Of a stretch of 64,000 nucleotides of DNA, positions 8,998 to 60,885 are shown one piece after another. Within the stretch, counting starts at the first letter, position 1; each line of letters begins with the position of its first letter. This DNA comes from Isurus oxyrinchus (Eukaryota). Both the position numbers and the translations under genes were made by a program. The stretch lies in NCBI GenBank assembly GCA_026770705.1, contig JANJGN010000033.1:15004001-15068000 (forward strand). The letters are read 5' to 3'. The notes under the pieces were generated by a model. That model had not been told where the DNA came from and ran no database searches. It was given only the letters and a program-made list of their open reading frames with translations.

Positions 8998-9929
8998 CCA
9001 ACTTGATAACGATTGTGATACTTTCCCGTAGAAAGTGTGGTCTCTCCACATGTATCACTCGGTACTTGGTGGCCATGGCAGCGGCAGATCTCCTGGTCGT
9101 TATCAATTATGTGATATTGACTCGAATTGTGGAGTCTTCTTTTGCGACTAATTTTATGTTCATTACTCCTGTTTGTTCTTTACAATCTGCCTTAAATTCT
9201 GCTTCCACCGACATCTCTGTTTGGTTTGCAGTCACTTTCACTTTTGATCGCTTTGTTGCCATTTGTTGCCAGAGGCTGAAGACTAAATATTGCACTCAAC
9301 GAACTGCAACCACCGTCATAGGATTTATTTGCCCAATTTTCTGCTTAAAGAACATACCCTGGTACTTTGCATATGAAGCCACATTTATTACTGACAACAC
9401 ACCATGGGGTTGCAATAGAAAAGTTGATTATTATATTGAAAATTCTTGGACAGCGTTTAATTGGATTCACCGATGCTTGACGCCACTGATTCCAGTATTT
9501 TTGATATTGCTCTTTAATGCTCTGACTGTAGGACACATTTTGGCAGGACGTTGGGTAGGGAGCAGTCTGAGGGCCAGGCAGAATTATAGGGATCGAAATG
9601 ATCCAGAGATGAAGAAGCAGAGAAAATCTGTCATCCTGCTCTTTGCTATATCTGGCGAATTCAGGCTTCTCTGGGTAACTTATGTAATATATTTCTTGTT
9701 AATCCGCATTACAAACTATTATTATTCAAAAGGTTTCTATGACCCAATGCATATCGCAGATGAAACCAGTCATATGCTCCTACTTCTGAGCTGCTGCACT
9801 AACACATGTATTTATGCAGTGAGCCAGACTAATTTTAGAGAGCAGTTTACAAATGCGATCAAACATCCAGTGAAAATAGTGCTTACCTTAATAAAACAAA
9901 GAGAGAAAGGGAATGATTACCAATATTAG
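8998..9929 (+). CDS. GPR139-like class A GPCR, main coding exon (exon 2; TM1 second half to C-terminus), open frame
   Basis: Polypyrimidine tract and acceptor 'ttatcttttacag|CC AAC TTG' (phase 1, (A)NLITIVILS). 308-codon ORF with LVAMAAADLL (TM2), CS..FDRFVAIC (TM3), FLILLFN (TM5), LLWVT (TM6) and LLSCCTNTCIY (TM7). Exon 1 not confidently found. Confidence 0.88.
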
Positions 9930-10285
9930 ATCAGCAGTGTATCTCTTGCTTTATGATAGTTTGTTTTCATATTTCACGTGTCCTCAACAGAGTTCATCGC
10001 TTTGCAAAATTTTGCACACATATCATCAGAGATAATCAACAAATGTGTGCTTTCCTGTACAATTGACAGTTATCAAAATAACTGATATAATTTCTATTAT
10101 AGGTTATTTTACTGGTTGGTGATTAACTCCGTTATGTCACATTTCGAGACAGAGAAAGACGAACCGTATCTTCTGACTGTTATGTGTAGACAATAAATGA
10201 AAAGAAAAAAAGAATAAAAGGAATGAAACAAGAGAAAATGAAGATATCATTGAACAAATAAACCAAATTATCTATTTATATATAT

Positions 10286-11010
10286 TGACATGATCCTGAA
10301 CAACACTCCCAAATTTTTCGCAGAATCCGGTTAAGGACCAGTAACTTTAAAAAGAAAAACTAGCCGAACGTTGAGGTCGAAGGTATTTGATCAGAATAAG
10401 GCCACAAAATTCCAAGGTTGTTGACAAATGAAATTAATTTTACTATGCAAACTCAGAAAAATAAAACAACTTGCACTGTTTATCTGAGACACTTGCATTC
10501 AGCGTTAACATGAGCTACATGTGAATAAACAGGCAAACTGTGATCAAACACGCCTACCTGCATAATAAATATCAGATGCAACTAAGACAGATCCTACAGA
10601 TTTCTCAGCAAACCACCCAGTCGTCTGTATGCATAGTGAGTTACAAAATCTCCTTAAACTTATGTCTCCTTCACAAGGGGTTCCATATTCTTCATTTCGT
10701 AGGTCTGGTCTCTGGATTCCCCAAGGCCAGTTTTGGCTTGGACTGCCTCAATGGCTGCTCAACTCCCAGGATTTTTCTCTTTTCTGCTGAGGCCATGTTC
10801 CCCTGAAATTCCGAGTCTGTAGTCCAGCCTCCACTCATTGGCAGAATTTTACCGCTTTGCTAAGACAGCTAGCTTCGCCATGCACGCACTACCCCTAGGT
10901 TTCTCCGCATTCCGGTTTCCCGGCAGTTACCCAGCTAAATATGCAAGTCATCTCCTGAGACCGAACATTAGCAGCACAGAGCCATTGACCTTCAGCCACC
11001 TGATGTAACA
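10286..11010 (-). mobile_element. LTR-like remnant, inverted-duplicate partner of 15290-16403
   Basis: 'ccctgaaattccgagtctgtagtccagcctc' (10801-) is the reverse complement of ~15863-15893. Terminus 'tgacatgatcctg' matches 'caggatcatgaca' at 16391-16403. Confidence 0.5.
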
Positions 11011-11139
11011 AGTGTTGAGACATGCACATGCGCATATGTCTGTGCATTCAGGCACACACACATATTCACACCTATTGATAGGCGGACGGCGTATAGACGG
11101 ACGGACAGATGGACGGACGGATGTACGGATGAATGGATA

Positions 11140-11298
11140 TTTAGAACAGAAAGTGCTGGAAAAACTCCGCCTCTTCAGAGCTCCCAAGAAGTGTCATAGA
11201 GATTTGACACGTTATCTCGATATCTCCTGCCACAGATGATGTCAGACCTGATAAGTTTTCCCAGCATTTTCTGTTTTTATTTTAGATTGCCAGAGTCT
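11140..11298 (+). mobile_element. Degenerate Penelope-like pLTR fragment with a partial inverted arm
   Basis: 'aacagaaagtgctggaaaaactc' at the left pairs imperfectly with 'aagttttcccagcattttctgtt' at the right. Same family as 17221-17453. Confidence 0.6.
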
Positions 11299-11456
11299 NN
11301 NNNNNNNNNNNNNNNNNNNNNNNNNNNNNNNNNNNNNNNNNNNNNNNNNNNNNNNNNNNNNNNNNNNNNNNNNNNNNNNNNNNNNNNNNNNNNNNNNNNN
11401 NNNNNNNNNNNNNNNNNNNNNNNNNNNNNNNNNNNNNNNNNNNNNNNNNNNNNNNN
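11299..11456. other. Assembly gap (158 N)
   Basis: Run of N characters. Confidence 1.
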
Positions 11457-11975
11457 ATAGATGGATTGAAAGATAGATTGATAGACACTCAGACAGGCAG
11501 ACAAACAGAAAGACAGAAAGATAGATAAACGAACGGACCGACAGACAGGATGTGTGGATGGGCAGATTGATAGATGGACGGAAAGGCGGATGGATGGAAG
11601 GATGGGCGAATGGATGGATGGTACTGCACATTAACAGCATGAAGAGTTTTTGTCCTGAAAATTGCCCAGTCTATTTCAGATTTGCCTGAAAATTTATTCT
11701 TGTACCCAATGCCCTTGTTAATAAATCCTAAGGCACTATATGTTTTCTTAACTGCTCTCTCAACATGTACTACAATATTCAGTGACCTATGAATGCATGC
11801 GTCTCCTCTGTTTCTGCACCTCCTTTAGATGGTCTCCCTTTATTTTACACTCTGACCATATTTTCTTTTCCTGGCAGAACGAATCACCTCACGCTACCCT
11901 GTATTACATTCTGCCTGGTATATTCTTCATGCCAGTGCCTAACCAATGGAAGTCGACTTGTCAACCAATTAGCTA

Positions 11976-12838
11976 TTTCTACTCATGTTGATTTTCTCAA
12001 TGAATCCAGCAAAACAAAAAGTAAAATTTTGTTTCAATAATTTCTGCAACCATACAGTGGTAATTTTCCCAATCTTCAAAGCTTTATTTCTATCCGGAAG
12101 ATGCTCCACTTTGGAGTCAACAAAGAAAATAATGGTGACCAAGCGACAACATGGAAAAAAAATGATTCACAAGTGGGCCATTATCCTGATAGCACTCGGG
12201 TGTACTGTCGATTCAAGTCGATTTTTCTTCTCTTCTTTGACTATATTTCGAAGAAAAATCATCGGCATTAGATTGCCTGTGAGCGGGTGCAACTGAGACT
12301 TTGGAAGAGATAAAATTTCTTGTTTGGACGTTGACACTCTTCTGCAGCTGTTAATACTGCTAGGTTGAGAAAACTGTTTAGTAAGGAGCCGTATGCCATT
12401 TCTGGGAAGTTACCGAGTAATTGTAGTGGTGGTATTTGACCTTTTGTTCCTTTGAACTTTTGGAGAATTGGAGTTTCACTCCTTCACATGCTTCTTGATC
12501 ATATTGGTCTTATTCAAATTGTGGGCTCACAGTCTATCAGAGTAACATTGGAATAAAGGCCTATCTTTGTTTTAACCACTGTGTAATGTGTAACAAATAT
12601 TGAATTTGATATGACAAAATTATAGTACAAAAATAAGTTAAAATATCTCTTTTCAAGAATCGTTTTTTCCATGTTAACGTTTGGTCACTATTCTTTTGTG
12701 TGTTGACTCCAAAGTGGTGGCTCTTCCGGAATACAAATAAAGGTCTGAAGATTGCAAACATTGAACATGGATTTAAGGAGACAAAATTTCGCTTTTTATT
12801 TTGCTGGATTCATTGAGAAAATCACCATGAGCAGTATT
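11976..12838. mobile_element. Non-autonomous TIR DNA transposon with ~190-bp terminal inverted repeats (superfamily uncertain, Tc1/mariner-like)
   Basis: 'ctcatgttgattttctcaatgaatccagcaaaacaaaaag' (11982-12021) mirrors 'ctttttattttgctggattcattgagaaaatcaccatgag' (12792-12831). Similarity continues inward: ccactttggagtcaaca at ~12106 versus tgttgactccaaagtgg at ~12701. Confidence 0.8.
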
Positions 12839-12879
12839 AATGTTCGAGTATGAAGCATTGCTGAGAAGAAAAAGAAATG

Positions 12880-13070
12880 CAGCTGAAGCCTTTTGGCTTC
12901 CACTCACCAAGGACCTTTCATAAGCTTACCAATGATAAAAGAGAAAACAATTTATAGTTTAAGAGGAGAAACAGCTAATTGTTTGACACGTGGACTTTCA
13001 TTGGTAGGGGCATTGGCATGAAGAATGTACCAGACAGCAGTTCATGCAGAGAATTGTCAGGTGATTCGTT
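12880..13070 (-). mobile_element. Penelope-like (Poseidon-type) 3' terminal fragment, probably continuous with 14510-15185
   Basis: Similar to the 14510-14620 tail (attggt..gcatgg..gaatg.acc). Decayed hammerhead-like 'gtcc..tgagt..aaaaggcttc' on the minus strand at ~12883-12915. Confidence 0.45.
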
Positions 13071-13800
13071 TTGAAAGGAAAGATGCCGGGGACAGGCCCC
13101 GCTCACCAAAACGTCAAGTGATGCAGGGCCCGTCACCACGCATCATTCTGATCATCAGTTCGCCGGCGCCGACCAGAGTCCACTGCGCGCCCGCCGAATT
13201 GCCAAAGGTCTCTTAAGGCCATGTAAAACCGAGTTAAAGAGATTAACAGAGCTGCCTGTCCATACGTAAAGTTGGCGGGCAAGCGAATAGCGCATGCGGC
13301 GTTCGGATTCGTCATGAAATCCTATCCACGGGCAGGCTTTTATAAACGAATTTTTTTTCTCATTGACATGTCTCAGCTTATGTGGCACTGTCCCATGAGG
13401 GGGAATGTCTGATCTTTTAAAAATTTACCTTTTTAATAGTGAAATGAAACCTCCTGAGGCACAAGGTTTCAACACTCTTTCACTCACATGCGTAAAAGAC
13501 TGCAGGATCTGATTCTCCCACCCACCACCACACCACCCCCCACATCCCCCCCACCCTCCCCGCCCGCCCGCACAGGCGCTTCCGAGCTCTTGTCACCAGG
13601 GGCGCTCTTTAACTGGCCCATCCACAAAATGATGGTACCAAGCCAATCGTGGGTGGCCATCCACTGCGCACCCGCCTGTGCCTATTCCCACTCGCACTCA
13701 CCACCGACCCCCTCACCTCCCCCTCCCCCCACCCCCCATCGCAGCCCCTTGATGGGGAGAAGATTCTCCCCCATGAGACAGTATAAAATAAAACAGACCC
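13070..13800. mobile_element. GC-rich non-autonomous Harbinger-type element (MITE-like)
   Basis: Abrupt CpG-rich block with C-runs. Right end 'aaaataaaacagaccc'. No coding capacity. Confidence 0.45.
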
Positions 13801-13809
13801 TCTAAAAGA

Positions 13810-14510
13810 GGTGAAGGAACAGAGACGCACAGATAATTGTCATTGAAAATGCAAGGGCATTTTGTGACCGCAGCTAACAAAGCAAATAGCATCGTGGGCA
13901 CTATTAATTGGAGCCTTGAGTGCAAGAGCAAGGAGGTAATGTTGAACTTATAAAGCGCTAGTTAGGCGTCCTCCGGAACACTGCACACACTTGAAGAAGC
14001 ATGTGAAGGTATTGGAGAGTGGATGGAGGAGATTCACCTTAATGGTCCGAAAGATAAATAACTGTCGCTGTGAGGATAGATTGGAGAAGTTTGGTCTGTT
14101 TTCCTTGGAGAACAAATTGCTAAGAGGAGACTTGATAGAGATATTCAAGCTACTGGAGTGCGTGTACAGGGTAAATAACGAGAAACTTTTGCCACTCAAG
14201 AGAACATCAAGAACCAGAGGGCACAGCTTCAAAATAATTGGCAAAATCAGTGAATGTAACGTGAGGAAACATTTTTATCAAAGAGTGGTTGGAGTCTGGA
14301 ACAAACTTCCCCAGTGTGGTTGAGATAGACTCGATCGAGTTATTCAAAAGAGAATTGGATTGTTACCTGAAAAGAGAGAATGTGCAAAGTTACGGGGATA
14401 AGGCAAGGGGGTGGGTCTAGGTGGAATGCTCTTCCAGAGAACCAATGTAGATTGAATGGAGCGAATGGCTTCCTTCTCCACTGTGAAGACACTGTGATGC
14501 TGTGATTCTG
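13810..14510 (+). mobile_element. CR1 LINE 3' end
   Basis: ORF 13991-14323 reads EDRLEKFGLFSLE..LRGDLIEIFK..TRGHSFKI..FYQRVVGVWNKLP, followed by a CR1 3' UTR ending 'ctgtgattctgt'. Confidence 0.92.
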
Positions 14511-15185
14511 TCAAATGCCAAGCTTTTGTTTAAATTCAAAGCAGGCAGGTCAGCACTTATTGGTCAAAGTATTCGCATGGGGAATGAACCAGGCTAGGGC
14601 CGTCTCAAGATTTATTTAGTTGATAAAGGTGCAATGAATGGACGTGCTCCTTGTCATCTAAATAGGGCAGGACCCTTTCATGAATGTATGTAGCTTCAAG
14701 CATGTGTAAGTGAGCCACACTGTGAGCCTGACTGACAGTCTTAAATTAGTTTCTATTACATTTGCTAGCACAATAAGCATTGTTTAGCAAGTGTTTTCCT
14801 ATCGTGGAATCACATTTAATGCTGAGCCTTTTGAGATTTGAAAGCACGGGCTGTTGAATACGCTTTGCACTTTGCCTGTTGTGAACAGCTGAAGGGGCGT
14901 GCTGTTTGATATGATCCGCCAGCCTTTTTGGCATACAGTCTACATACCTGGCACCACACCACACAGAATTACATGTAATGCATTGCTCGTTTGTGGAGTA
15001 GGCAGAAGGTATTTTTGGCTTGATGGCAGCGTTTTGTCACTGGATGATAGCACTTGCGTAGCTACTGCATCGTAATAGCATGTATTGGATAGCTACACCT
15101 GTTGCTTATATTTTGGAGATGCCTTACCCTTCCAGGCAAATCTGAAGTAGACTGAGCACTTTTCAGATCCAAAAGTCTTTCACAT
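14510..15185 (-). mobile_element. Penelope-like retroelement (Poseidon-type), GIY-YIG endonuclease remnant
   Basis: ORF 14746-14964 CGARYVD..KRLADHIKQH..STIGKHLLNN..CA. Upstream linker SEKCSVYFRFAW at ~15130-15170. Confidence 0.8.
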
Positions 15186-15289
15186 TGTTAATGTGCAGTA
15201 CTATCTATCTATACACCTATCTATCTATCTATCCATATGTGTGCGCGTACGCGAGCACGTGCATGTGTGCATGTGTGTGTTCCAATACC

Positions 15290-16403
15290 TGTTAAATCTG
15301 ATCCTGCTGAGTAACAAGTGAGGGGCCCTCTTGCAGTGCCTTGATAGATTTCCAAGGTTATTTCAAAGGCCAGTCAGTTTTAGGCAGTAAGGTAGAGCAG
15401 AACAGTGGAAGAAGATTCATGCAACTGAACTGCTGCTGTTAGCTCAAAGGAGCTAGTATGGGGGCCGAGTGATGCCCTGGGAGCAGTTTTCTGGTTCTGT
15501 CTTGTTGACAGAGAGTTCATGCTTGGACGAAGGCTTGGCAGCAATTTATAAATCGGTGCATCCATGAGTTGGCACTCAAAAAAGCCTCCATAATTCGGTG
15601 TTCATTAGGAGAAGAAAATGAACTAAGCAGGGGAATTGCTAATGCTAGCAGGCACCAGGCAGTCAGGACACAGTGAAGGTGCCGACAGCTGAGAAGGTAG
15701 CGGAAGGTCACGGGCTCCATGCTACTGATGCTGGGTCTCAGCAGATGACCTGGATGTTCAGTTCGGTAACAACTGGAGGATCAGAGTTCAGAGAAACCCA
15801 AGGTGGTGCCAAAATGGTGAAACTAGCTGTCTTGGAAAAGTGATACAATTTTGTCAATGAGCAGAGGCTGGACTACAGACTCGGAATTTCAGGGGGTCAT
15901 GGTCTCAGAAGACAAGGGACATACCCTGGGCGTTGAGCATTCAATGAGGCAGTGAAGTCAGAACTGGTCTTTAGGGAATCCAGAGGCCAGATCTTCGAAA
16001 TGAAGAGTTTGGAATCACACTTGTGAGGGAGACGGACTTTTAACGAGATGTTGGAGCTCACACTGCATTCTGACGCCTGAGTGGGTTGCTGAAAAATCTG
16101 TGTGATGTGTCTTCTTTGAATCTAACATTTATTATGAATGTGGTGTGCTTGATACGGTTTGCCTGTTAATTCAGGCCTGTTAATTGCTCATGTTAATTCT
16201 GAACGTTAGTGTCTCAGATAAATCAGTAAATTGTTTTATTTTTCTGATTTTGCACAGTAAAGTTCATTTTGTTGGCTAAAAACCTTCGAATTGTGTGGCC
16301 TTATTATCTGAGTAAATACCTTGGCTACATTTTTCTTTTAAAAGTTACGGGTCCTTAATCAGATTTTACCACAAACTTGGGAGTTTTCTGCAGGATCATG
16401 ACA
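15290..16403 (+). mobile_element. LTR-like element (probable solo LTR)
   Basis: Starts near 'tgttaaatc' and ends 'ggatcatgaca' (TG...CA). No internal coding sequence. TSD not clear. Confidence 0.5.
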
Positions 16404-16809
16404 ATATATAGATATATCGACATCGACATAGATGTGGAATCATAGTTATATGTAAATGGGTAATTTTGTTTATTCGTACGTTTATATCTTCATTTTCTCT
16501 GGTTGCATTAGCCCTTTCCTTCCATTGCCTACACATAACAGCCTAAACTTGAATGTTTTGTCTCGCTGTGTCTGGGAATGTGACATTAGCCAGTTAAATT
16601 GCAACGAGTAGTATAACTTATCAATAGGTATTATATTGTTATTTTAACTTTCCGATTACAAATTATACAGGAGAGCACATCTGTGTTGGTCACACCCCAA
16701 GGTTATCCATAGAAAATTTTGCAACCTGATGAAATCTGCTGAGGCCAGGTAAAATATGTAAATAACGTGCCACAAGAAAACAGATACACGTTGTATCAAA
16801 TGTTGGTCT

Positions 16810-17964
16810 TCATTCTGTTTCTCTCTTTATGTCATTCATGTAAACTATATTTTCACTGGATATTTGATCCCAATTACAAGCTGCTCTCTAAATTTAGTCT
16901 GGCTCACTGCATGAATACATGTGTTAGTACAGAAGCTCAGAAGTAGGAGCATATGACTGGTTTGATCTGCAATGTACATTGGATCAAAGAAACCTGTTAA
17001 ATAATAATGTTTTGTGATGCAGATTAATAAGGAATATATTACAAAAGATACACAGAGAAGAATGAAGTAGCTAGATATAGCAAAAAAATAAGATGACAGA
17101 TTTTCTCCGATTATCCATCTCTGGGTCGTTTTGTTCCCTATTATTCCGCATGGTCCTCGGTCTCCTCCAGACCCTAATTACTGCGAAAATGCATCCTACA
17201 GTCAGAGCATTAAACAGCAAGAAAAACAGAATTACCTGGAAAAACTCAGCAGTTCTGGCAGCATCGGCGAAGAAGAAAAGAGTTGATGTTTGGAGTCCTC
17301 ATGACCCTTCAACAGAACTGTTGAAGGGTCATGAGGACTCGAAACATCAAAGCTTTTCTTCTCCGCCGATGCTGCCAGACCTGTTGAGTTTTTCCATGTA
17401 ATTCTGTTTTTGTTTTGGATTTCCAGCATCTGCAGTTTTTTGTTTTTATCTCTGCATTAAACAGCAATGTCAGAAATATTGGACGCAGTGGAGTCAAGCA
17501 CTGGTGGATCAAATTAAATGCAATCCAAGCATTTACAGTGTAAAATTCAGCTTTTCTATTACAAGCCCATCGTATGTTCTCTGCTATAATAATGGCTTCA
17601 TATGCAAAGTAGCATTAACAGAAAAGTGAGAGGATTACTCCTATAACTGTGGCTGCAGTTCTGTCAGTGCAATATTTCGTCTTCAGCTCCTAACAACAAA
17701 TGGCAACAAAGTGATCAAAAGTGAAAGCGAATGTGAACCAGTCAGAAATGTCTGTGGAAGCATGAGTTAAGGCCAATTGTAAAGAACAAACAGGAGTAAT
17801 GAACAGAAAAATTAGTCGGGAAATAAGAGTCCTTAATTCGTGTCAATATCACGTAATTCATAACTACCAGGAAATCTGCTGCTGCCATTGCCATTAAGTA
17901 TCGATGATACAACGGGAGAGACCACACATTCCCTGGGAAAGTATCACAATTGTCATCAGATTCG
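16810..17964 (-). pseudogene. GPR139-like GPCR pseudogene (inverted paralog of 8998-9929)
   Basis: Acceptor 'tctctattacag|CG AAT CTG'. RYLMAMAAADFLVVMNYVILTRI present. Frameshifts near 17903 and 17808, in-frame TAG in ICC*ELKTKYC (~17690), a deletion in TM4 and a 233-bp insertion in TM5. C-terminus SQTKFREQL..IKYPVKI. Confidence 0.92.
17221..17453 (+). mobile_element. Fold-back Penelope-derived element (inverted pLTR pair plus 3' tail) with hammerhead motifs and a 14-bp TSD
   Basis: TSD GCATTAAACAGCAA at 17207-17220 and 17454-17467. Arms ~17222-17315 and 17318-17411 around a 2-nt centre. Unpaired ~42-nt tail. Confidence 0.9.
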
Positions 17965-18672
17965 CTGTAATAGAGAAACATTTGGACAGAATCAGCTCCG
18001 AAGTTACATCAATTATTTAGATTCTAAAACAGCTCACAAGGATTGGAAGGTAGCAAAAATACTTGGTATTCAATTGAGGTGGATCATAGAAAATGAGGAA
18101 CTAGAGATCGGTGATTTAACATCAGTAGCAGAAATTTGCTGGATTCTGTTACGAAGGAAGTTCTAACAGGGCACTTAGAAACTTGCATTACGACTATGTA
18201 GTAAAGTAGCCTTTGTGAAAGTGAAGTCACATTTGCCAAATCTTTGAGAGACAGTTAGGGTACATGAATGTAAAATGTACATCGGGATTTAGGTTTGTTT
18301 ACAGTATTTTATTGGATTTTTCTGTGAAATAAGATGATCTAAGGTACTGCACAGCACGCTAATTTTCTAAGATATTGCCAAGGATTGGAGATTTTTAACA
18401 ACCAGTAAAGAAAAAGTAGCAATACATAGGATATTTTCAGTTTGGCAACAGATATATAGCGGGACACTGCAATGACCACAACAACAAAAAGTGCTGGAAC
18501 ATCTGAGCAAATCTGACAGCACCTGTGAAGTAAAAGACAGAGTTAACGTTTCGAGTCCGTATGAATCTTCTGCAGATAAGGGCAAAAAGCTGCGAATGCT
18601 GGAAATTAAAAACAAAAACAAAAATACCTTGAAAAACTGAACAGGTCTGATAGCATCTGCAGAGAGGAATAC

Positions 18673-18711
18673 AGTTAACATTTCGAGTCCGTATGACTTT
18701 TCAACAGAACT
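18673..18711 (-). ncRNA. Minimal type I hammerhead ribozyme motif (variant core)
   Basis: Minus strand reads AGUU-CUGUUGA-A-AAGUC-AUACG-GACUC-GAAA-UG-UU-AACU. Stem I is AGUU/AACU and stem II is present with one terminal mismatch. Confidence 0.65.
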
Positions 18712-19065
18712 AATGAAAAATAGAAAAGAGGTGAAATATAAGCTTGTTTAAGGGTGGGGGGAGGTGTGAAATGTAGAGCTGGATAGAGGGCAAGTGATAG
18801 GTGGAGATAACCATGAGATGCCATAGACAAAAGGACAAAGAGGTATTGAAGCTGGTGATATTACCTAAGGAATGTGATAATAAATGTACAAATGGAGTTA
18901 GTGGGTTTGGGTGGGGGGAAGGGATCGAAATAGGCTAAAAGGCAGAGGTAAAATAATGGATGGAAATACATTGAAAAATAGTGGAAACAGTTGGGAAAAG
19001 AAAAGTCTATATAAATTATTGGAAAAAAGGGGGATCGGAAAGGGGGTGGAGATGGAGGAGAGAGT

Positions 19066-29610: not shown

Positions 29611-29634
29611 TCTCTGAATTATGTATTTTCATTA

Positions 29635-30420: not shown

Positions 30421-30429
30421 TTGGAAATG

Positions 30430-43044: not shown

Positions 43045-43939
43045 TCAATGAAATAATTTGTTATTCAGTGTGAAGGAATATTTCACTCCGTTCCAGAACT
43101 CCGCTCTAAACTTCCTTTGGGTCACTGCATAAATAAAGTGTTTGTACAGCAACTCAGGAGTTGCAGCATAAATCCCATTTCCCAAACAAACATGGGCAGA
43201 GGAACAGAATACCGCAAAAAATCCAATCGCCTTAATGTAGAACAAGCCATAAACACCATCCACAAGAATGTGAAATTCCCTGATATAATAAAGAGCAAGG
43301 TTATAGATTTCCTTCGGCTCTCCATCTCTGAGTCACTGGAACTGTCCCCATGCCTGTGGCCTCGGAGTCTTTTGCAGGTCTTGCTGGCTATTAAAATGTA
43401 ATTGACTGTTAATGTCTTTAACAGTAGAATCAAAACAAATGGAAGAAATGGCGTTACAATGTAATGCAATAATTCAACAATGGACCAGGCCATTGAACGA
43501 GATACACCAGGATCAACACGACAAAACCAGGAACTGTTAAAAAGCCAATATTCAGTAGTATATAAAAAATACCAAAAAATGTTCTTCAAAAGGCTCAGAA
43601 CTGCCACGATTCCTAAAACCACATCCGCTATCTTCTCCTTGCAATATTTAGATTTCAGATTCTGACAACAAATCGCCACAAAGCGATCAAAGGTGAAAGT
43701 GACTGGGAACCAGACCGAGCAGTCTGTGACAGCATAAAGCAAAACAGCATTGCTGTTACACAGGCTAATGTTCCTGAAAAAAATAAATTATTCCCGGTAA
43801 ACAATAGGAATCTGCCTTAGTATAACATCGATTATAACGACCAGTAGATCTGCAAGTGCCATAGCCACCAGATAGCGAGTTACACATTTGGAGAGGCCAT
43901 ACTTCCCCCGACACAGGATGGCAATTGTCACAACATTAA
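43045..43939 (-). pseudogene. GPR139-like GPCR pseudogene (exon 2), two frame lesions
   Basis: Acceptor 'atttttctcag|TT AAT GTT'. In-frame TAA at 43788-43790 (the paralog has CAA) and a 1-nt deletion at ~43136 in TM7. Otherwise collinear with 56202-57097. Confidence 0.92.
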
Positions 43940-49437: not shown

Positions 49438-49459
49438 AGATGGAGAAGTTTTCCATTAT

Positions 49460-50358
49460 TTAATGCGAACGAATTAAGCTGATCACCGTTACAACGGGAT
49501 ATTTCACTCCATTACTCAATTCCTCTCTGAATTTGCTCTGATAACTGCATAGATAAAAGTATTCGTGCAGCAACTGAGGAGCGGCACCATGAAGTCAATT
49601 TCAGGAACAAATGTGGGAAGAGAAATAGTGTATCCCAAGTATCCAATCGTCTCCATATACAGCATACCATAAACACCGCCAAAAAAATAGCATGAAATTC
49701 CCTGATATAACGAACAGTAAAATCATGGATTTCTTTCGGTTCCCCATCTCTGGGTCCATGGGGCTCTCATTGCTACGACTCCAGAACCCCCTTCGGGCCC
49801 TGCTGGCTACTAAAATATTTCTGATTGTCATTACATTGAAGAGTACAATCAAAAGAAATGGCATAAAATACGTTAAAATATGATACATTAATTCAACAAC
49901 GGCCTAGGCGAGTGAACGGGAAAGATAGACCTTCACGAGGCAAAGCCAAGGACTATTTGAAAGCCAACATGTACTTGTACATAAAAAAAATACCAGAAGG
50001 TGTTCTTCAAATAACTGAGCACGGACACTGTTCTGAGGACTACAGTAACTGTTTTCTCAGTGCAATATTTAGACGTTAGCTCCTGAACAAATGGCTTCAG
50101 ATCGATCAAAGGTGAAAGTGGCAGTAAACAGGACAGAACGGTCTGTGACAGCATAAAGCATGACGGCATGGATATTAAAAAATCTGACATTTAACAGAAA
50201 AGCAGTTTCTCCTCGATGAACAATAGGTATCTGCCTCAGTTTCAGATGGAATATTATGACCAGCAGATCCGCCGCAGCTGTGGCCTCCATGCAGCCAGTG
50301 ACACATTTGGAGAAACCACATCTTCCCCTAAAAAGGAACGCAATTGTAACTGCATTAA
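49460..50358 (-). pseudogene. GPR139-like GPCR pseudogene (exon 2), multiple frameshifts
   Basis: Acceptor 'attgcttatag|TT AAT GCA'. Homology is split over ORFs 50069-50395, 49933-50190 and 49601-49888 (RGRCGFSKCVT, TFDRS, SKYCTEKT, DPEMGNRKKSMILLFVISGNF). C-terminus GVKYPVVTVISLIRSH*. Confidence 0.92.
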
Positions 50359-52249: not shown

Positions 52250-53860
52250 CCATGCCATGGGCGTGAGCTTAAGTTGGTACCGGGCGTGTGATTTTCCTGA
52301 GCCCACCAGTGTAATGTACCCGAACAAGGATTGCCGTGTTGGGGGACATTGGAATTTGCTGCACTGAACGAGGGAGTGTGCATAACGTGGAGCTAGTTAT
52401 GTCTTTTACCATAACCAGAGAACAAGGAAATTGCTGTGCCGGGGAAGGCGGAGCGTAGAACTGGTTACTCGTGAATTTTCGGTGGGCAACTGAATGGCTC
52501 TTGTGCCGGGACTTGTGGATTTACTGTTCTGGTACCCCTGACTGTGATTCATGCTGTATTGTGCCCGGATATTGATAATATTGCGCCTGCAATGTATCGA
52601 GAAATGACAATAGGTTATATTGTGATGTAGGAATGCTATTTACTGGATCCTGCGAGTGTGCTGAACCTCGGTGGCTAGCCAAGCTGAGACCCGCATGTGG
52701 TCCTGACACGGGGGAATGTGAAGTTCCGGACTCAATGGGGAGTAGCACCGGCAAACAGAGGAGTGCGAAATACTGGAAATGCTGATTGTCCTGCACTGGA
52801 AATCAGAGATTTAGTACCCGGAGAGGGATTGTGTTGTACAGGACTTGAAATTGCAGGGAATTGAAACTCTTAGCTTTGCAGAAATATTCGGTCCTTCCAT
52901 TCCAGAGGAGGCTGAGGAGAAATTTCATAGGGATGTAAAAAATTCCCAAAGACCTAAATTAAGTAGCTGGAAAGGGCTCACTCCCCTTAGCAAAAGGGTC
53001 AGTAACAAAGAGGCATAGATTTAAAGTGATTGGCAAAACTGTTTGTAGGGAGTTGAGTGTTTTCTTTTTTCACTCCGCTTGTGGTGGGGATCTGGAACTG
53101 ATTGCCTGAAGGGGAGAGGTGGGAAGAAAGCCCTCGCTGTATTTTTCTTTCATTTAAATCAACACTTCGATGTGGACTTCAAGTGCCATGAGCTTCAACG
53201 TTAGGATCAAAGGCAAGGAGAGGGGATTCAGCGTGAGTGCCTCAGGCGTCACGGCCTGAATACATCGTTCTGTGACGTAAATGTTCTATATTTCTTCGAA
53301 CCTTTGTTTCTGCGCTGCACCGGGCCTCCGGCATTGTCTGGTTACTGTGTTATATTGACACGTGACATTGTGTTGTACGTGGACTGGAGAGTGAAGTTCT
53401 GTTACGGCGAGTGCGCTGCGACAGAATCCTCCAATGTGCTGTCCCAGGACGGTGGAGTGTTGTGTACTTGGGCCCTGGAGCATTCTGCGATGGACCTGGG
53501 AATGTACGGTGCAGGGATCTGTGCTTGGGTTGTTCTGGGACTGAGAAGGGCGCTATACCAAGACCTGGATCGTGATGTAATTGGACCCGCGAGCCCAATG
53601 CACCTGGACAGCAGCTTGTGAAACAGCAGCTCCTGGATATTTCCTCTAGCACGCACGTGATTGTTCGGCAGGGGGACCTCGGATCTGAGCTGCACCTTCA
53701 CCAGGGGCTTGGAAATCTGTTCTCTGGGGCCTGGAATTATGCTGTTACGGGTCTCAGAGTGTCGAAACCACATTTCCTTCAGACCTACTTCAGATCTCTC
53801 GGTGCCCACTGGCAATCTATCTAATGTTGATAGATTCTGGCCTCCCGTCGGGAAGTGCAT
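52250..53860. repeat. Degenerate ~21-22-nt tandem array in two blocks (52250-52870 and 53300-53860) split by a CR1 tail fragment
   Basis: Units such as 'gtgctgtcccaggacggtgga', 'attctgcgatggacctggga' and 'gcgctataccaagacctgga'. Confidence 0.55.
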
Positions 53861-54499
53861 TGTTTAGGCAATCGCGTTATTGAATAACAGGTAACGTAAA
53901 CAATTCACCGAGTGCGCTGTCATGTTTCCAGTGTAACTAATTCAACGTTTAACCCTCACCTTTTACAGCATTAAAGAACACGCTGAGCCAACAAAGAGTC
54001 GGTGATTGTAAATCAGTGCCGAAACACTGATTTCTTTTCTACCTTTGGCATTACAGATACAATATCGTTTTGCGGATTTTCTGCATACTTGATCTTCCTT
54101 TTCTGAGGAGTGTTTTTTTTTCATTCAAAAACCTCTTATTTTAAACAACAGCAGAGATCAGAGAAACTTTACAACACTGAGGTTATGAGAATCCCGCGCT
54201 GCCCGGATATTTTCCAGTATTGGCCTTGCGTGTGTGCGAAATGATGACCAGGAATCATTTCTAAAACACGCTGGACTGCGAGTTCAACACGGCATTTTCG
54301 AAAGCAGGTAACCGCTCTCCGGAAAATTTCTGCTCGGGAGACGTCTATTTATATCACCTGTCAACGTCCTGCGCAGCCTCCGGAAAACGCCAACGTTATT
54401 GAAAGAGTAACTAACTTATGTGTACAGTTGTGAAATATTTGGATAATGTAAACAATTAAAGAACGCCACCGGTGAATTCTGCAGGACAGGGCGCAGAGC

Positions 54500-56100
54500 T
54501 TCGATTGTCACAGAATGTGGCCAATTTAACTATTGCCACTCCCCCGCTCTTCCTTTCCAGCTATGCAAATATTTTCCTCTCAAGCAGGTAACCAATTCAT
54601 TTGAATCTTTCTATTGATTTAGCTTCCATCGCCTTTTTAAGCCGTACACGGCAAGTCACAACAACTCTATATGTTAAAGAAGGATTTTAGCTCGTCTTTG
54701 ATTCCTTTACCGGTGATCCTAAATCTGTTTGCTTCGGTTGCCAAATCATCTGCCTCCGTCAACAGTTTCTCCCTATTTAGGGCATCAAAGCCGTTCATAG
54801 TTTCGAACGCTGCTATCAAATCTTCTCTTGATCTTCCCAGCTCTGAGTTATACAATGCAGGACACTCAAGTGTCTCCACGTAACTGAGTTCCATCATCCC
54901 TGTTACAGTTGTTTGTCAATCATTTCTGAACCCAACCAGTGGCCTTAACAACCTTTTCGAAGTGTGGTGCCAGGAATTCACCAAAATTCTCCAGATGAAG
55001 CTCAATACGCGATTTATAAACGGATAGCATAAATTATCGGCTGTTGCAATTGATAAAGCCAGAAAGCCCATATGCATTAACAGATTCCCAACTTGTCCCG
55101 TTTATATATTTATGCAATACACCGCCACGTATCCGTGTTCACTTAGCCGCTTTTCAATTGTAGCATTTATTTCAGAATGACAACATTCATTCTTCTGACG
55201 AAAATGTACTGATTAGTTTCATTGAACTTCACGCACCACGTGGCAGCCCAATTTGCCACTGCCTGTGACGGCTTGAAATATTTTACTCTCATTCTCATTT
55301 GTTGTTGCATTTTGCAGTGTTCCATCCTCTGCAAACACTGAAATAATGTTTCCTATGCATCATATAATCCCACGAAGCTATCTAGGGAGCCTCTGGGCCT
55401 AATACAGAATCGCTGCCATCTTCCATCCAGTCTGAAACTCAAACGGTCGCCATTCTTCGCTGCTCTGCAATTTGCAGCCCATTTCGCAGTCATGTTGCTC
55501 CAATGCAGTTAATGCCATTGCCTCTAAGTTATATAAGAAATCCATCATGTGGCAATTTGTCAATCGCCTTTTGGAAGACAACTTCAAATCCATAACTTGC
55601 TCTAACCGCTATTCGGTTCAAAAAGAAATCTCGACCAAGTTAGTCAACAGCGTTTTACCCTTAACAGATCTGGGCCAATTTTTATTTATTAGCACATAAT
55701 TTACAAAAGCCAATGACTTTTTAAAAAAATATTATTCCTTTGGATGGCTTAATGGATTATCCTTTCCGAAAGTTCACCTAACTGCGAAGTAAGGCTGATC
55801 GATCTGTAGTTGTCGTGTGTATTTTCTCGGATATTTCTTGGACAGACATACAACATTAAGAATATTCCGGACTTACTGCACCATCCCTAGACGAAGGTTT
55901 GTGGCAGACATTCCCCATTTCTCAGTCGTAATTCACTCAGTAACCTATAATGCACTAGAATCGAATCAGCTAGTTTATCGAAATTGAGGACTCGATGGCT
56001 TTCAAGTATCTCACCTTACACTCACCAATGTTTCCGCTCTTCCTTTGACTACTATTTTTATTAGCTGGTGTTCGTCAGACATTTTTGATTCTCTTTATGT
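54500..56100 (-). mobile_element. Decayed CR1 LINE just downstream of the intact GPCR
   Basis: MMELSYVETLECPALYNSELGRSREDLIAAFETMNGFD..NRFRITGK (54667-54897). DLKLSSKRRLTNCHM (DFxKAFDKVPH-like). Confidence 0.75.
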
Positions 56101-56201
56101 TAGGCACTAATCTAATATCATCCTCTCTTGGCGCCCCTAATTTGCCTTTGTAGATTGTGTCGGTCATTCTACATCTTAATGTTCGAATGCCCGAGGAATT
56201 C

Positions 56202-57097
56202 TCAGTGAATTAATGCGATCATCCTTGCAAAGGGATACTTCACTCCGTTCATCAACTCATCTCTGAATTTGCTCTGAGTAACTGCATAGATAAACGTGTT
56301 GGTGCAACAACTCAGGAGCTGGAGCATGAAGCCAATTTCAGATACAAAGGTGGGAAGAGGTACTGGAATGCCCAAATAATCCAAGCGTTTCAATATATAA
56401 TAAATCATGAACACTACCCATAAAACCATGAAATTTCCCGATATAACAAATAGTAAAATCATGGACTTCCTTCGGTTAGCCATCTCTGGGTCAGCTGGAC
56501 TGTCCCCATTGTTCCGAAGCTGGAGTCTCCTGCGGGCCTTGTTGGCCACTAAAATGCTCCTGACTGTCAGGGCATTTAGCAGTAGAATCAAAATAAATGG
56601 AATAAACGGCGTTACAATATAATGCATAAATTCAAAGGTGGCCCAGACCAGCGAGCGAGTTACCCCTATTATCACAAGGCAAAACCACGGGCTGTTAGTA
56701 AGCCAATACCTGCTCGTATATAGAAAGAACCAGGGAATGTTTTTCAAAATGCTGACCCCAGTCACTGTTCCCAGCACAATAGTGGCTGTTTTGTCAGTGC
56801 AATACCTAGTTCTTAGCTTCGGGGAACAAATAGCTATAAATCGATCAAATGTAAAAGTGACAGTAAACCATACGGAACAGTCTGTGGCAGCATAAAGCAG
56901 AACAGCATGAATATTGCACAAAGGAATTGAGCGCACAAATCCAGATTGTTCACGATAGGTAATAGGAATTTGCCTTAGTATCAGATCGAAGATAATGACC
57001 ATTAGATCTGCCGCTGCCATGGCTACCAGGTAGCGAGTGACACATTTGGAGAGACCACACTTTCCACGAGACAGGACTGCAATTGTCACCACATTTA
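56202..57097 (-). CDS. GPR139-like class A GPCR, exon 2 (intact)
   Basis: Acceptor 'attgctcttgcag|TA AAT GTG' (phase 1). Open frame with LVAMAAADL, CNIH..FDRFIAIC, PWFC (ECL2), PFILILLLN, VLWVV and LLSCCTNTFIY. Joins exon 1 to give 330 aa. Confidence 0.93.
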
Positions 57098-57379
57098 CTG
57101 CAAGAGCAATTGAGAAAATTATTCAACAAACAACCTGGAATAAGAAATGGTTTGACTGATTGCTAGTAAAATAATGCAGTAGTTTACACAATATGAGCAC
57201 TAATCTCCCTCATGATAAACACGCAATTCATATGCAGCATGCAGATTATCTTTGCATCCATTGATGAAATCTAAATGCTTTACCTGCGATATGGCAACAT
57301 ACAGATACGGGTTGTATTCAAAGTAATCAGAAATGGATCAGAAATAATTGATCAAAGCACATCAAAATAAACTTGCTAG

Positions 57380-59425
57380 GTTTCATGACGGATTTTGAGA
57401 ATGGCATTTGACAAAGTGCAATACAATACGCCTATTATCAAAATTAAGCCCCATGGGTTAAAATTAACAATTGCAGAATATGTACTAAATTGGATAAAGG
57501 ATAGAAAGCAGAGTCTGGCAGTTTTTTTTTGGACTGTATCGAGGTATTTTCCAGTAGTCTATTAAGACCGCTTTTCCTTTTATATAGCTTAATTTCTTGG
57601 ATTTGAGGATGCAGGACACAATCTAAAATCCTGCAGATGACACGAAAAATGGAAGAGTAGTAAAGAGAAGACTATAATTTACTTTCAAGTGGACATAGAG
57701 AGGAAGGTGGATTGGGCGGACATGTGGAAGATAACTTTCAGCACAGATATTCTTGAAGTGACACATTTTGATAATAATAAAAGTACGAGGAAAGAATCTA
57801 AAAGGTGCAATTTTAAAATGGATGCAAGAGCAAAAGACCTTGGCGGTGTCTGTGCATAGATTTTTGAAGTGGACAGCAGGTTAACAAAAACAGTACAAAT
57901 AAACCCATGAAATCGTAAGCTTTATAAATAAAGGCATAGGATATAAAAGACAGGAAGTTGTGCTGAAGCTCTAGAAAATGTTTGTATTTCAAAATTCAAG
58001 ATTCAGCAAGAGTTCATATGTTCAGTTCCAGTCACCAGAATTTTGAAAGGATGGGAAGGCTTTGGAAAAGTTTCAGAAAAGATTTACTCGAACAGTTCTG
58101 AGGAGTAATCTTTGCATCCAGATGGATAGACTGAAGAAGCTAATGTTGTTCTATGTGGAGCAGGGAAGGCTTTCGTGGAGATGTTTAAAATAATTAATGA
58201 GTTTAAATATACTAAGCAACAGCATTTCTTAATAGTTGAATACAACCAGGAAATGCATCTCGAAAGTGAGTGGCAGTAGGAGCAGACAGATATGAGGGAA
58301 ATTAATGCATGGCTGTAATTTGGGTTGTAATGTGTTTTATTGTGTTGATAATGATTCAATCGTAACCTCGAAAGTGGATTATATAGATATCTTTATCAGA
58401 ACATTAGTGCATGGTGTGATGAAAGAATAATAATTTTCATAATATTTTCTGGTTTGCTGTGAAGTATACTTGTGGGGGTAACTATAGTTGGGAGTCAATT
58501 AGCAAGCTTTAAATCATGCAAATAATCTCGACCCTTTACATGCTATTGAGTAAACATTGGTGTTGGCTTAACATACAAGGTGTGAAGGGAATTTACATTT
58601 TTAGATAAATGAAGGTATTTTGAGATTTGAAATGGATCTTAGACGATTTACCACTAGCCAGATAAGCCAGATGTGTGTTTATTTCTCCCAAAGTTTAATC
58701 ACAGTATTGGCAATGTGATTTATTTTTATAATATGAGGAAGATACAGTTTTGAAGACATATGGAGCAGTAGAATTTACATATTGAAAAAGAGAGAAATGT
58801 ATATAAAGGAGAATGAAAGGTTGCATGGGGCAGAGCCATTTGAGATCTAAGAGGGGTGTATGAAATAGACTTAATGTAGCCTCCAGCCAAAACTGAACAA
58901 AACTCCAGCCAAAACAAAACTGAAGTTGTGGAAAAACCATTTGAAATTTCACTGTAAATTGTCTATTGTGTTAATGTGCTGGTTCTGTTTTAAATCTAAA
59001 ATCTATTTTGGGCCTTTGCCTTAAAGGGGGCATAATTGGGGGTCAGGTTAATGAGAATTTCTTCGGCGTTATTATAGCAATAGGCAGTAGTTGTGGTTGT
59101 ATCTATATCAATATAGCTATAGGTTGAAATATTTTATTTTGTTAATAAATATTTGAATTTAATTTTTCAAATTTCTTAAGTTCTTGGTGGACTTATTGCT
59201 TTAAATTCAGTGCACACATCTTCTTGTAATAAATACAAATTGCAAAACCATTGTGATAGCGCGGCTGAGTTCCCCATGTGGATTTGGTCCACCTGCCACA
59301 CATCATCTGCAATGTCATAACAATGGGTATGGTGGAACAGTGGTGAAATGGGAGAAATGGATTGTTCTCCGAAATAGTTCGCTCGATGGGCCTACTTCTC
59401 TGCTACTATTATATGATTCCATGAC
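57380..59425 (+). mobile_element. Decayed intronic CR1 LINE, tail interrupted by a solo LTR
   Basis: DFE.AFDKV (~57390-57420), ADDTK ('gcagatgacacgaaa' ~57633) and LQVDIERKVDWADMWKITF. The tail resumes at 59327. Confidence 0.82.
58415..59322 (+). mobile_element. Solo LTR (908 bp, Gypsy-like) with a 4-bp TSD
   Basis: ATGG|TGTGATGA ... TCATAACA|ATGG. TG..CA termini with a 7/8 inverted match. AATAAA near 59143 and 59228. Confidence 0.85.
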
Positions 59426-60788
59426 TTTATTTCTAACACTCTTATGGTGAATACACATCACCGTGGAGTCGTCTGGTTGTAAATGCTAGTGAGTACATTT
59501 TTTGCACCCCACCCCATCCCTAACAGAAGAGATAGTTCCTCTATCTACCCAACAAAATCCTTCTATCAATTTTTGTACGTCAGACGGATGTTCAACGACA
59601 TTTGAATATTCAGAGAATACAACTTTTATCTATTCAACTGGTTCATGAACGTTTAACATTTAACCCCGGTGTCCTTGGGTTGAACTTGCATTCGAGTCTC
59701 TCCAACGTTAATATGTGTTTGCTGTTGCACGGTACCAAAGCTGAATGCTTTACTCAAACTGGGTGTAAGCTGAACTCGGCACTGTTAAGAAATTTCAACC
59801 CCTTTGTATTACAACCCTTATAAGATAAAGGCCATTATTAACATTTGTTTTTATAGAAAATACTTACATTTCACCCTTTAATAGAAAGTACAATTCTGAG
59901 CTTTGCGTATTGAATAGTGTGAGCTTGCTCTTTGAGGGATAGCATTAATCTACTTTTCTTGGTTGGGGTGGTGAAGATAAAGAACTCGGATTGTTTGGAA
60001 AAGGAGAGCAAATCATATTCTCTAAATGGTATAGTTAACCATACGCACTGTCCTTCATGCATTCATTGCATTGAGTGCATTGAATGCACACTTGTTCCAT
60101 GCAAAGACAGAAATCAGTCTTTCCCATCCAATGGTTTTAAAGTAATTGTTCTATTTCCCTGCTACTAGTCCGGATTGTTAAACATTGAATCCCTGTTCAT
60201 TTTGAATATTCGAATTCTTGTAATGCCTGATCAACCATTCCACGGCTGTCAGTGGTCCATCAATGGATAAGCCCAGTTACATAAATCTTAGGGTCAATGC
60301 TCGGTAATGGAATATTGACAGATACATAGAAATTAACTATTAGAAATATGGTAACCAAACTACCTGAACAATGATAATCAGTAAATCAAACGACATTAGC
60401 CTTGTGCAACTGTTCAGGGACAGTGTCTCTGACAAAGAACAGGAACCAGTAGGGAGGAAGACATCTGAGCAGTATGAATCAACCGTGCCTTTCTCATTAA
60501 TTTGTTCTCGATTTGTTTGTACAAATGAATAGTTAACTCGACTAAATTGAATATTATGTTGCCTCACAAATATGTTCGCATCTGACACTCGGGCTAGATA
60601 CTTGTAACATGGTTGGTGCTATTGTCAGAAAGAGATAATAATTTAGATCCTAACAATATTTTCCGAAATTGAACAAATGATGAGCATTAACGACATACTG
60701 ATCATTCAGCTCAGACCAACGGATGTCCATTCATGTCAAACATTTTAAGAAGCGGTTCCTGAATGACCAGCACCAGATCGTAACTTAC

Positions 60789-60885
60789 CGGGAACCCCGA
60801 CTGCAGCCAACACAGGATAGTAAATCTTCTGTGTATCTTCAATCGCCCATAGAATCTGAAGTTTGATCAGGAAACTGAGAGCCAT
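60789..60885 (-). CDS. GPR139-like GPCR, coding exon 1
   Basis: ATG at 60885 gives MALSFLIKLQILWAIEDTQKIYYPVLAAVGVP plus one G, then the donor GTAAGT. 97 nt is phase 1, matching the exon 2 acceptor. YYP..GVP|VN completes TM1. Confidence 0.9.

What the first reader, a model, noticed from the sequence alone, without database searches (positions are those of the whole stretch)
8998..60885. Birth-and-death cluster of five GPR139-like orphan GPCRs, possibly a chemosensory-style receptor repertoire
Seen: five paralogous 7TM exons in 52 kb in two subfamilies (9k/17k and 43k/50k/56k). Two are open and three are broken, all share the same phase-1 intron in TM1, and the extracellular loops differ between subfamilies. 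Known: GPR139 and GPR142 are single-copy aromatic amino acid-responsive receptors in mammals, and tandem expansion with many pseudogenes is typical of chemoreceptor and immune families. Inference: this is part of a lineage-expanded, functionally uncharacterised receptor family, distinct from the true GPR139 ortholog.
Basis: partly seen in the sequence, partly recalled or inferred. Interest (0 to 1): 0.72.

Follow-up and report, generated by a model that had tools for sequence, protein, structure and literature searches.

The report
Thousand-copy overlooked shark receptor family
These five gene copies (two with open reading frames, three broken) belong to a family of cell-surface receptors with well over a thousand copies in this shark's genome assembly, separate from the brain receptor GPR139 whose name databases give them, and likely an overlooked set of chemical sensors, though where they are active is untested.

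Summary
Confirmed, with corrections. The window holds five second exons of a class A GPCR but only one first exon (60885-60789). The first exon of the 9k gene lies just upstream of the window. The 17k, 43k and 50k copies are broken and have no detectable first exon. The family is far larger than the window: 1,763 matches to an exon-2 motif and 1,351 to an exon-1 motif in this assembly (controls 1 and 0), a count that unpurged haplotypes could inflate up to two-fold. GPR139 and a GPR142-like gene are separate single loci. A tree holding the family with GPR139 is rejected (AU p 2e-89); the sister group is a salamander orphan, and a chimaera gene nests inside. Extracellular loops and pocket residues vary, signalling motifs are kept, and many members share a 24-bp promoter element. 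Site-level positive selection is only nominal, O/E sites are not family-wide, and I have no tissue data. Best reading: a chemosensory repertoire (0.5); immune sensing is the main rival (0.25). Ten literature searches found no description. This scan has noted the family before on other DNA.

The parts
8998..9929 (+). Exon 2 of the 9k gene (open, TM1 half to C-terminus). Its exon 1 (100 nt, 33 codons plus one base) and a promoter with a perfect O/E-type palindrome and TATA box lie just upstream of the window (G000:C33:15003487-15003586), intron about 9.4 kb; predicted protein 343 aa, possibly under relaxed selection
16800..17964 (-). 17k pseudogene exon 2, inverted paralogue of 9k (81% DNA); stops, frameshifts; the region that would hold exon 1 is deleted
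17220..17467 (.). 247-bp palindromic insertion in the 17k exon, with a short direct repeat on both sides; related copies at about 46519-46739 and 18478-18717
43045..43939 (-). 43k pseudogene exon 2 (stop at codon 51, 1-bp deletion); no exon 1 found; 85% identical to a broken copy about 90 kb upstream of the window
49460..50358 (-). 50k pseudogene exon 2 (several frameshifts, one stop); no exon 1 between it and the 56k gene
56202..57097 (-). Exon 2 of the intact 56k gene (330-aa protein with exon 1; 95% to a Carcharodon protein, about 80% to catshark and smooth-hound orthologues)
57098..60788 (-). Phase-1 GT-AG intron in TM1 of the 56k gene (3,691 bp)
60789..60885 (-). Exon 1 of the 56k gene (97 nt, N-terminus and first half of TM1); the only first exon in the window
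61032..61055 (-). 24-bp promoter element shared by many family members (forkhead-like TGTTTGTT followed by a homeodomain-like TAA[GT]TAA; motif names recalled), with TATA-like boxes near 60998 and 60982

Best explanation
The window is one piece of an old tandem cluster of a very large two-exon class A GPCR family of cartilaginous fishes, which likely works as a repertoire of chemical sensors. Shown: the genes multiply by tandem and segmental duplication and decay by frameshift, insertion and loss of exon 1. They keep the G-protein side (D/R 3.49-3.50, P5.50, W6.48, N7.49, Y7.53) and the TM3-ECL2 cysteines, and they differ in the extracellular loops and pocket residues. Many share one promoter element. 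Inferred: a common promoter programme would put them in one cell type, most likely chemosensory cells such as the microvillous neurons of the shark nose. Each receptor would be tuned to a different water-borne peptide or small molecule and would signal through Gi/o or Gq. The peptide guess rests on the ancestry of the GPR139/MIP/FMRFamide clade. In this window the 56k gene is the conserved working copy, the 9k gene is complete but may be decaying, and the other three are dead.
For: Size: 859+904 exon-2 motif matches against 1 control; 69 of 70 motif loci fetched are family exons and 40 of 70 have an open exon 2; 674+677 exon-1 matches against 0. Breadth: 2,310 and 2,175 clusters at E<=1e-10, and every named protein among the best 120 of each search is a shark or ray; a chimaera gene nests inside. 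Birth and death: 14 near-full exon-2 copies in 264 kb of C33, 4 open. Diversified outer face: family entropy is 2.1-2.7 bits in loops against 0.9-1.4 in helices, and pocket positions 3x32, 3x33, 5x43, 6.51 and 7x38 vary while R3.50 and Y7.53 are 69 of 69. In a young subfamily 43 of 54 copies are intact and give 42 distinct proteins; pairwise pN/pS is 1.89 in ECL2 against 0.16-0.40 in helices (27 copies); loop variants are 57 nonsynonymous/19 synonymous against 79/52 elsewhere, p 0.034. Promoter: 349 exact matches against 0, with an exon 1 downstream in 27 of 30 and upstream in 0 of 30; 7 of 10 held-out promoters score above the shuffle 95th percentile. Mouse OR promoters are enriched for O/E, homeodomain and TATA sites (PMC3247239 passages). 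Cartilaginous fishes have only 20-62 known olfactory receptor genes despite many sensory neurons (PMC10869828 passages).
Against: There is no tissue evidence. Loop variability and birth-and-death also describe immune sensors. Positive selection is only nominal: with CpG accounted for, the two best ECL2 sites give p 0.008 and 0.016, not significant over 299 codons, and overall selection is purifying. A perfect O/E site lies in 1 of 18 anchored promoter windows and 0 of 8 newly fetched promoters; the 56k gene has none. The promoter seed was picked by eye, so the held-out test is not blind, and shared promoters may partly reflect descent. [quoted passage not shown] Copy counts may be inflated up to two-fold: 6 of 903 pairs are at least 99.5% identical, about what doubling of every locus would give in this sample.
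Confidence: 0.5

Rival explanations
1. Innate-immune sensor repertoire on leukocytes or epithelia, like formyl-peptide or MAS-related receptors (analogy recalled), detecting microbial or damage peptides.
For: It has the same birth-and-death pattern and loop variation. Young amplified arrays show shuffled ECL2 haplotypes, 21 three-site combinations in 43 copies. Sharks lack MAS1 and its relatives (PMC8455134 passage), so another family could fill that role. Catshark OR genes are often highest in spleen or other organs.
Against: Site-level selection is weaker than an arms race would suggest. The 56k lineage is kept with few changes across shark orders. The homeodomain-like plus TATA promoter with partial O/E sites resembles OR promoters.
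Confidence: 0.25
2. Mostly non-adaptive amplification: a few working neuropeptide-type receptors carried along in segmental duplications, the rest open only because they are young.
For: Roughly 55-kb units repeat at about 91-97% identity in their unique segments on unplaced scaffolds. 26 of 40 spread loci are broken. The 9k branch evolves neutrally by pN/pS. Haplotype doubling is not excluded.
Against: Selection is purifying even within the young subfamily (non-CpG shared variants 0.023 nonsynonymous against 0.045 synonymous). Many deep subfamilies are shared across sharks, rays and chimaera, with 116 clusters at 50% identity scoring E<=1e-30. A promoter element is conserved between subfamilies and absent from their introns.
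Confidence: 0.15
3. Reproductive-tract or germ-line receptor arrays (ampliconic testis-type genes, or gamete or mate recognition).
For: Ampliconic near-identical arrays and copy-variable N-terminal glycosylation repeats. Some catshark V2Rs are expressed in testis.
Against: Clusters sit on many large chromosomes (first 100 places: C2 to C32), and nothing here ties them to sex chromosomes or gonads.
Confidence: 0.1

Closest known systems
GPR139 and GPR142 (vertebrate orphan class A receptors; PDB 7VUG, 9M42)
   Same: Best PDB sequence hit (E 2e-11) and best fold hit (7vug_R, TM 0.72-0.83, 22% identity). Same phase-1 acceptor in TM1. No P7.50. H5x43 kept in 38 of 69 and W6x48 in 66 of 69 family rows.
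   Different: Both are present in this genome as separate single loci. The family keeps the TM3 and ECL2 cysteines that GPR139 and GPR142 lack, has DRF for DRY in 58 of 69, lacks P6.50 in 67 of 69, and replaces E3x32, R6.51 and mostly N7x38. A shared clade with GPR139 is rejected.
Unnamed vertebrate orphans beside GPR139/142 (probably the 'GPR210' subtypes of PMC6504862; accession match not checked): salamander P0354/P0389, coelacanth P0352, teleost P0358, bichir P0394
   Same: The salamander pair is sister to the family (100/100). The coelacanth/teleost and bichir lineages come next, and each has its own single shark orthologue on C9 and C6 with the same acceptor position.
   Different: Those lineages are single loci in this shark, whereas the family has over a thousand copies. 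The paper covered no sharks.
Vertebrate chemoreceptor families OR, TAAR, V1R/ORA, V2R/OlfC, T1R, T2R
   Same: Clustered birth-and-death evolution, variable outer face with a conserved signalling side, and a shared promoter element with homeodomain-like and TATA parts.
   Different: A different ancestry (peptide-receptor clade), two coding exons, O/E sites not family-wide, and no expression or ligand data.
Protostome MIP/FMRFamide/myosuppressin receptors and the Pfam Srw family (PF10324)
   Same: They are the protostome sister group of GPR139/142 and are activated by aromatic amidated peptides (PMC8557429 passages). 16-17% of members of two of the nearest Atlas cluster sets carry PF10324. That Srw is a nematode chemoreceptor expansion from this clade is recalled.
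   Different: This is an independent expansion in cartilaginous fishes. The window proteins matched only 7tm_1 in Pfam.

Membership tests
Class A (rhodopsin-like) GPCR | 7tm_1 match above the curated cut-off | tested here: met
   69.9, 74.3 and 44.7 bits against cut-off 30.5
Class A (rhodopsin-like) GPCR | Seven-helix fold with helix 8 and an ECL2 hairpin | tested here: met
   AlphaFold2 of the 95%-identical orthologue P0001, pLDDT 85.3, pTM 0.84; the 50 listed fold hits are GPCR structures
Class A (rhodopsin-like) GPCR | Activation motifs and the TM3-ECL2 disulfide | tested here: met
   R3.50 69/69, D3.49 68/69, N7.49 68/69, Y7.53 69/69, C3.25 65/69, C45.50 66/69; P6.50 and P7.50 mostly absent
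GPR139 orthologue or direct paralogue | Groups with GPR139 to the exclusion of other vertebrate orphans | tested here: not met
   AU test p 2.15e-89 on 26 rows; GPR139 pairs with the GPR142-like gene, 100/99
GPR139 orthologue or direct paralogue | Trp/Phe pocket residues F3x33, H5x43, W6x48, N7x38 (PMC5430874 abstract) | tested here: not met
   56k has Y, H, W, F; 9k has S, H, W, H; across 69 rows F3x33 is kept in 4 and N7x38 in 11
GPR139/142/'GPR210' clade in the wide sense | Nearest human sequence and fold is GPR139; shared phase-1 intron in TM1 | tested here: met
   same acceptor place in the C15, C9 and C6 genes
Chemosensory receptor repertoire (functional class) | Large clustered family with many pseudogenes | tested here: met
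Chemosensory receptor repertoire (functional class) | Diversified ligand-facing residues under positive selection | tested here: inconclusive
   Loop enrichment p 0.02-0.03; CpG-aware site tests nominal only; no codon-model program on the script machine
Chemosensory receptor repertoire (functional class) | OR-type promoter (O/E plus homeodomain plus TATA) | tested here: inconclusive
   Homeodomain-like and TATA parts widely shared; O/E-likeness above shuffles (mean 2.67 against 3.3 mismatches, 0 of 2000 shuffles as low) but perfect in 1 of 18
Chemosensory receptor repertoire (functional class) | Sparse expression in sensory epithelium | not testable with these tools
   No tissue-labelled RNA run was available; the catshark supplement could not be read
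Chemosensory receptor repertoire (functional class) | Activation by external chemicals | not testable with these tools
   Needs ligand screens

The most novel reading that the evidence does not exclude
Sharks, rays and chimaeras evolved their own large chemoreceptor family from a peptide-receptor ancestor that stayed a low-copy orphan in salamanders. With hundreds to over a thousand intact genes in some species it would rival mammalian odorant-receptor repertoires, overturn the view that cartilaginous fishes smell with 20-62 receptors, and add a seventh family to the six known vertebrate chemoreceptor families.
Probability: 0.4. Interest if true: 0.93.

Novelty: new variant of a known kind. 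Interest (0 to 1): 0.75.

Why it matters
Published surveys describe cartilaginous fishes as poor in GPCRs (PMC8455134) and as having many olfactory neurons but few receptors (PMC10869828). A family of this size, hidden under the automatic label 'probable GPR139', contradicts the first statement whatever its function. It also turns the second puzzle into a direct test: map existing shark nose, taste, spleen and testis RNA to these genes. If the family is instead immune, it would be one of the largest innate receptor repertoires known in a vertebrate.

Tried and rejected
Shared first exon spliced to alternative second exons: considered because the window has one exon 1 for four minus-strand exon 2s, and the 56k+50k layout recurs downstream. 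Rejected as the main reading. All three 50k-type exons in the region are broken, and the nearest catshark protein to 50k has its own first exon (P0037). Expression: no RNA holder was listed for the 56k exon, which is no evidence either way. Contigs of 4 of the 8 runs guessed to be RNA, from a related species, covered exon 2 of a subfamily-A locus (31, 6, 29 and 13 contigs, nearly all under 95% alike) with no exon 1-exon 2 joint. RNA status and tissue are unknown, and stray DNA of a multicopy family could give this, so it is not counted. Splicing of any member therefore remains unshown. The first exon-1 searches for 9k inside the window found nothing; the exon lies outside. 11 of 20 regions fetched upstream of diverse genes gave no credible exon 1 within 9 kb; one more had its exon 1 too near the region's edge, so 8 promoters were scored. 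Searches with amphioxus P0370 did not return true GPR139; a short motif did. The 82-row careful tree did not finish, so one search is the quick tree; one search is a careful tree on 26 of those rows. In one search the row labelled '3.25(C?)' was mis-indexed; the cysteine counts come from the last lines of that output. Rfam found nothing in the window. Pfam on 12 other long frames gave nothing above cut-off. Literature: ten searches found no description of the family. The library lacks most subscription papers. The catshark supplement and the figure labels and supplements of bioRxiv 2025.06.08.657570, a tandem-cluster survey of two batoid genomes, were not seen and could name it.
Full report
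Observation. Translation and tBLASTn of the window show five paralogous exons, each beginning at an AG acceptor in phase 1 within TM1. Two are open (8998-9929 + and 57097-56202 -). Three are broken (17k, 43k, 50k; lesions). All three tested match Pfam 7tm_1. The two subfamilies are 53-58% identical in DNA and differ most in the outer loops: 3/19, 6/27 and 1/17 identical residues against 93/149 in TM2-TM7. Only one first exon lies in the window, 60885-60789; with a 3,691-bp intron it gives the 330-aa 56k protein. The first exon of 9k lies 414-513 bases upstream of the window. In 17k the matching stretch of an inverted duplication is deleted, and 43k and 50k have no first exon either.

State of the two open genes. 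The 56k gene is conserved. It is 95% identical to a Carcharodon protein and about 80% to catshark and smooth-hound proteins, has branch pN/pS 0.33, and departs at 3 of 170 clade-invariant columns. The 9k gene is complete but has pN/pS 1.34 (10 synonymous, 48 nonsynonymous). That figure was measured against pseudogene outgroups and so is uncertain. It also departs at 13 of 120 clade-invariant columns, including an Arg in TM6. It may be decaying.

Size of the family. In 264 kb of contig C33 around the window there are 14 near-full second exons, 4 of them open, and 11 first exons. A protein search of the genome scored 129 of 7,892 candidates, all at 61% identity or more. A 20-base TM7 motif has 1,763 exact matches against 1 control. 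Of 70 motif loci fetched, 69 are family exons and 40 have an open exon 2: 14 of 40 spread over large chromosomes, 23 of 25 in one array, and 3 of 5 others. A first-exon motif has 1,351 matches against 0. Extrapolating the sampled intact shares gives very roughly 600-1,400 open second exons; this is an estimate from uneven samples. Exact motifs undercount, while unpurged haplotypes could inflate the scaffold counts up to two-fold: 6 of 903 pairs in a young subfamily are at least 99.5% identical. Public proteins give 2,310 and 2,175 clusters at E<=1e-10, and all named proteins among the best 120 of each search come from sharks or rays, nearly all labelled 'probable GPR139'.

Ancestry. Human GPR139 is the nearest solved relative by sequence and by fold. 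True GPR139 is a single locus on C15 (E 4e-159 to the human chain), and a 56%-identical GPR142-like gene lies on C22. The nearest non-chondrichthyan proteins are salamander, coelacanth, teleost, bichir and amphioxus orphans; the coelacanth and bichir types each have a single shark orthologue of their own. In a quick 82-row tree and a careful 26-row tree the family forms a clade (91/86) sister to the salamander genes (100/100), and GPR139 and the GPR142-like gene fall outside. Holding the family with GPR139 is rejected (AU p 2.15e-89). A chimaera gene nests inside, so the expansion likely began before the split of chimaeras and elasmobranchs. The 9k gene groups with horn-shark and zebra-shark proteins that lie on contigs of the same length as those species' 56k-type genes, which suggests an old shared cluster. 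The low-copy relatives probably match the 'GPR210' subtypes of PMC6504862 (passages; accessions not matched).

Anatomy and selection. Across 69 family rows the signalling motifs and both disulfide cysteines are nearly fixed. The residues that bind Trp and Phe in GPR139 (PMC5430874, abstract) are only partly kept and vary between members. Loop entropy is about twice helix entropy. In a recently amplified subfamily, 43 of 54 copies are intact and encode 42 different proteins. Pairwise pN/pS is 1.89 in ECL2 and 0.16-0.40 in the helices (27 of 34 copies). Loop variants are enriched for amino-acid changes (p 0.034; 0.021 for shared variants; not corrected for site make-up). Two ECL2 sites carry 6 and 7 different residues, one next to the ECL2 cysteine, but both lie on CpG codons. 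CpG-aware tests give p 0.016 and 0.008, which do not survive correction. So purifying selection is shown, and diversifying selection is suggested only.

Promoter. This followed a lead from earlier notes. A 24-bp element lies 45-60 bases before a TATA-like box in both subfamilies of the window and in many others. A matrix from 8 promoters scored 7 of 10 others above the shuffle 95th percentile; the seed was chosen by eye. A tight pattern has 349 matches against 0, and 27 of 30 have a first exon downstream against 0 of 30 upstream. The 9k promoter has a perfect O/E-type palindrome, but only 1 of 18 anchored windows does. O/E-likeness is above shuffles on average, and 0 of 8 newly fetched promoters had a perfect site. 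The earlier claim of an OR-type promoter is therefore only partly borne out: homeodomain-like and TATA parts widely, O/E in part (compare PMC3247239, passages).

Mechanism. Shown: duplication and decay, a conserved intracellular side, a variable outer face and a shared promoter element. Inferred: one cell type expresses the repertoire and each member binds a different external ligand, probably a peptide or small amino-acid-like molecule given the ancestry (PMC8557429, passages). I put 0.5 on chemosensory cells, 0.25 on immune cells, 0.15 on mostly non-adaptive amplification and 0.1 on reproduction. No call gave tissue information.

What is known. Cartilaginous fishes are credited with 20-62 olfactory receptor genes (PMC10869828, passages), a V2R-dominated nose (PMC10116579, passages) and a paucity of GPCRs (PMC8455134, passages). 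In the passages searched, the catshark genome paper has no word beginning 'GPR1', and a survey of batoid tandem clusters names SUCNR1, V2R and protocadherins but not this family. Supplements and figure labels of both were not seen. Ten searches found no description. Earlier notes of this scan describe the same family on other DNA; they are not counted as support.

Verdict. It is a class A GPCR family, not GPR139, and a new, independently expanded repertoire of a known kind. Interest 0.75.

Noticed in passing
G000 C110:1100001-1200000 and C70:2010001-2110000 (L021-L040), and many other unplaced scaffolds: A roughly 55-kb unit with three family genes (two open, one broken) is repeated at about 91-97% identity in its unique segments. 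One of its genes has 170 exact motif matches genome-wide. Whether this is one giant array, a sex-linked amplicon or partly haplotype doubling is open.
   Followed up: partly
First exons of subfamilies A and C (for example L022, L025, L194, L195): The N-terminus carries a 14-residue repeat with an N-glycosylation sequon, in different copy numbers between near-identical paralogues (1-5 sequons in 6 examined). The Heptranchias protein P0062 has a similar repeat.
   Followed up: partly
G000 C34:1086225-2306967 (L075-L099): A tandem array with a recurring step of about 18.7 kb holds near-identical family genes, 23 of 25 sampled with an open exon 2.
   Followed up: no
G000 C9:126713131-126714114 (L151): The single shark orthologue of the coelacanth and teleost orphan (59% identity) carries one in-frame TGA in the ECL2 region, so it may be a recent pseudogene.
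   Followed up: no
L015 (C33:15108589-15109485): The closest paralogue of the 56k gene (92% DNA) has an open exon 2 and an exon 1, but its acceptor reads CG instead of AG.
   Followed up: no
window 49074-58208 against C33 about 126-138 kb from window start: The 56k+50k pair is duplicated in inverted orientation downstream. A third 56k-type/50k-type pair lies at about +79 and +86 kb; in none does the 50k-type exon have its own first exon.
   Followed up: partly
window 835-12160 against 12663-28352: The 9k and 17k genes sit in the arms of an old inverted duplication (70-80% identity) that extends upstream of the window.
   Followed up: yes
window 19069-19602 (-), 22481-22774 (-), 13946-14320 (+), 28841-29233 (+), 19824-20186 (-): Decayed transposon-like frames. 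One has a weak RVT_1 match (E 0.003, below cut-off). The others look by eye like GIY-YIG/Penelope, CR1 and Harbinger remnants (recalled, no Pfam support).
   Followed up: partly
P0296 cluster: A bamboo-shark gene model joins a coiled-coil or RING-type protein piece to a family exon 2. It is probably a gene-prediction fusion, not checked.
   Followed up: no
window 11299-11456: 158 N, outside all parts described.
   Followed up: no
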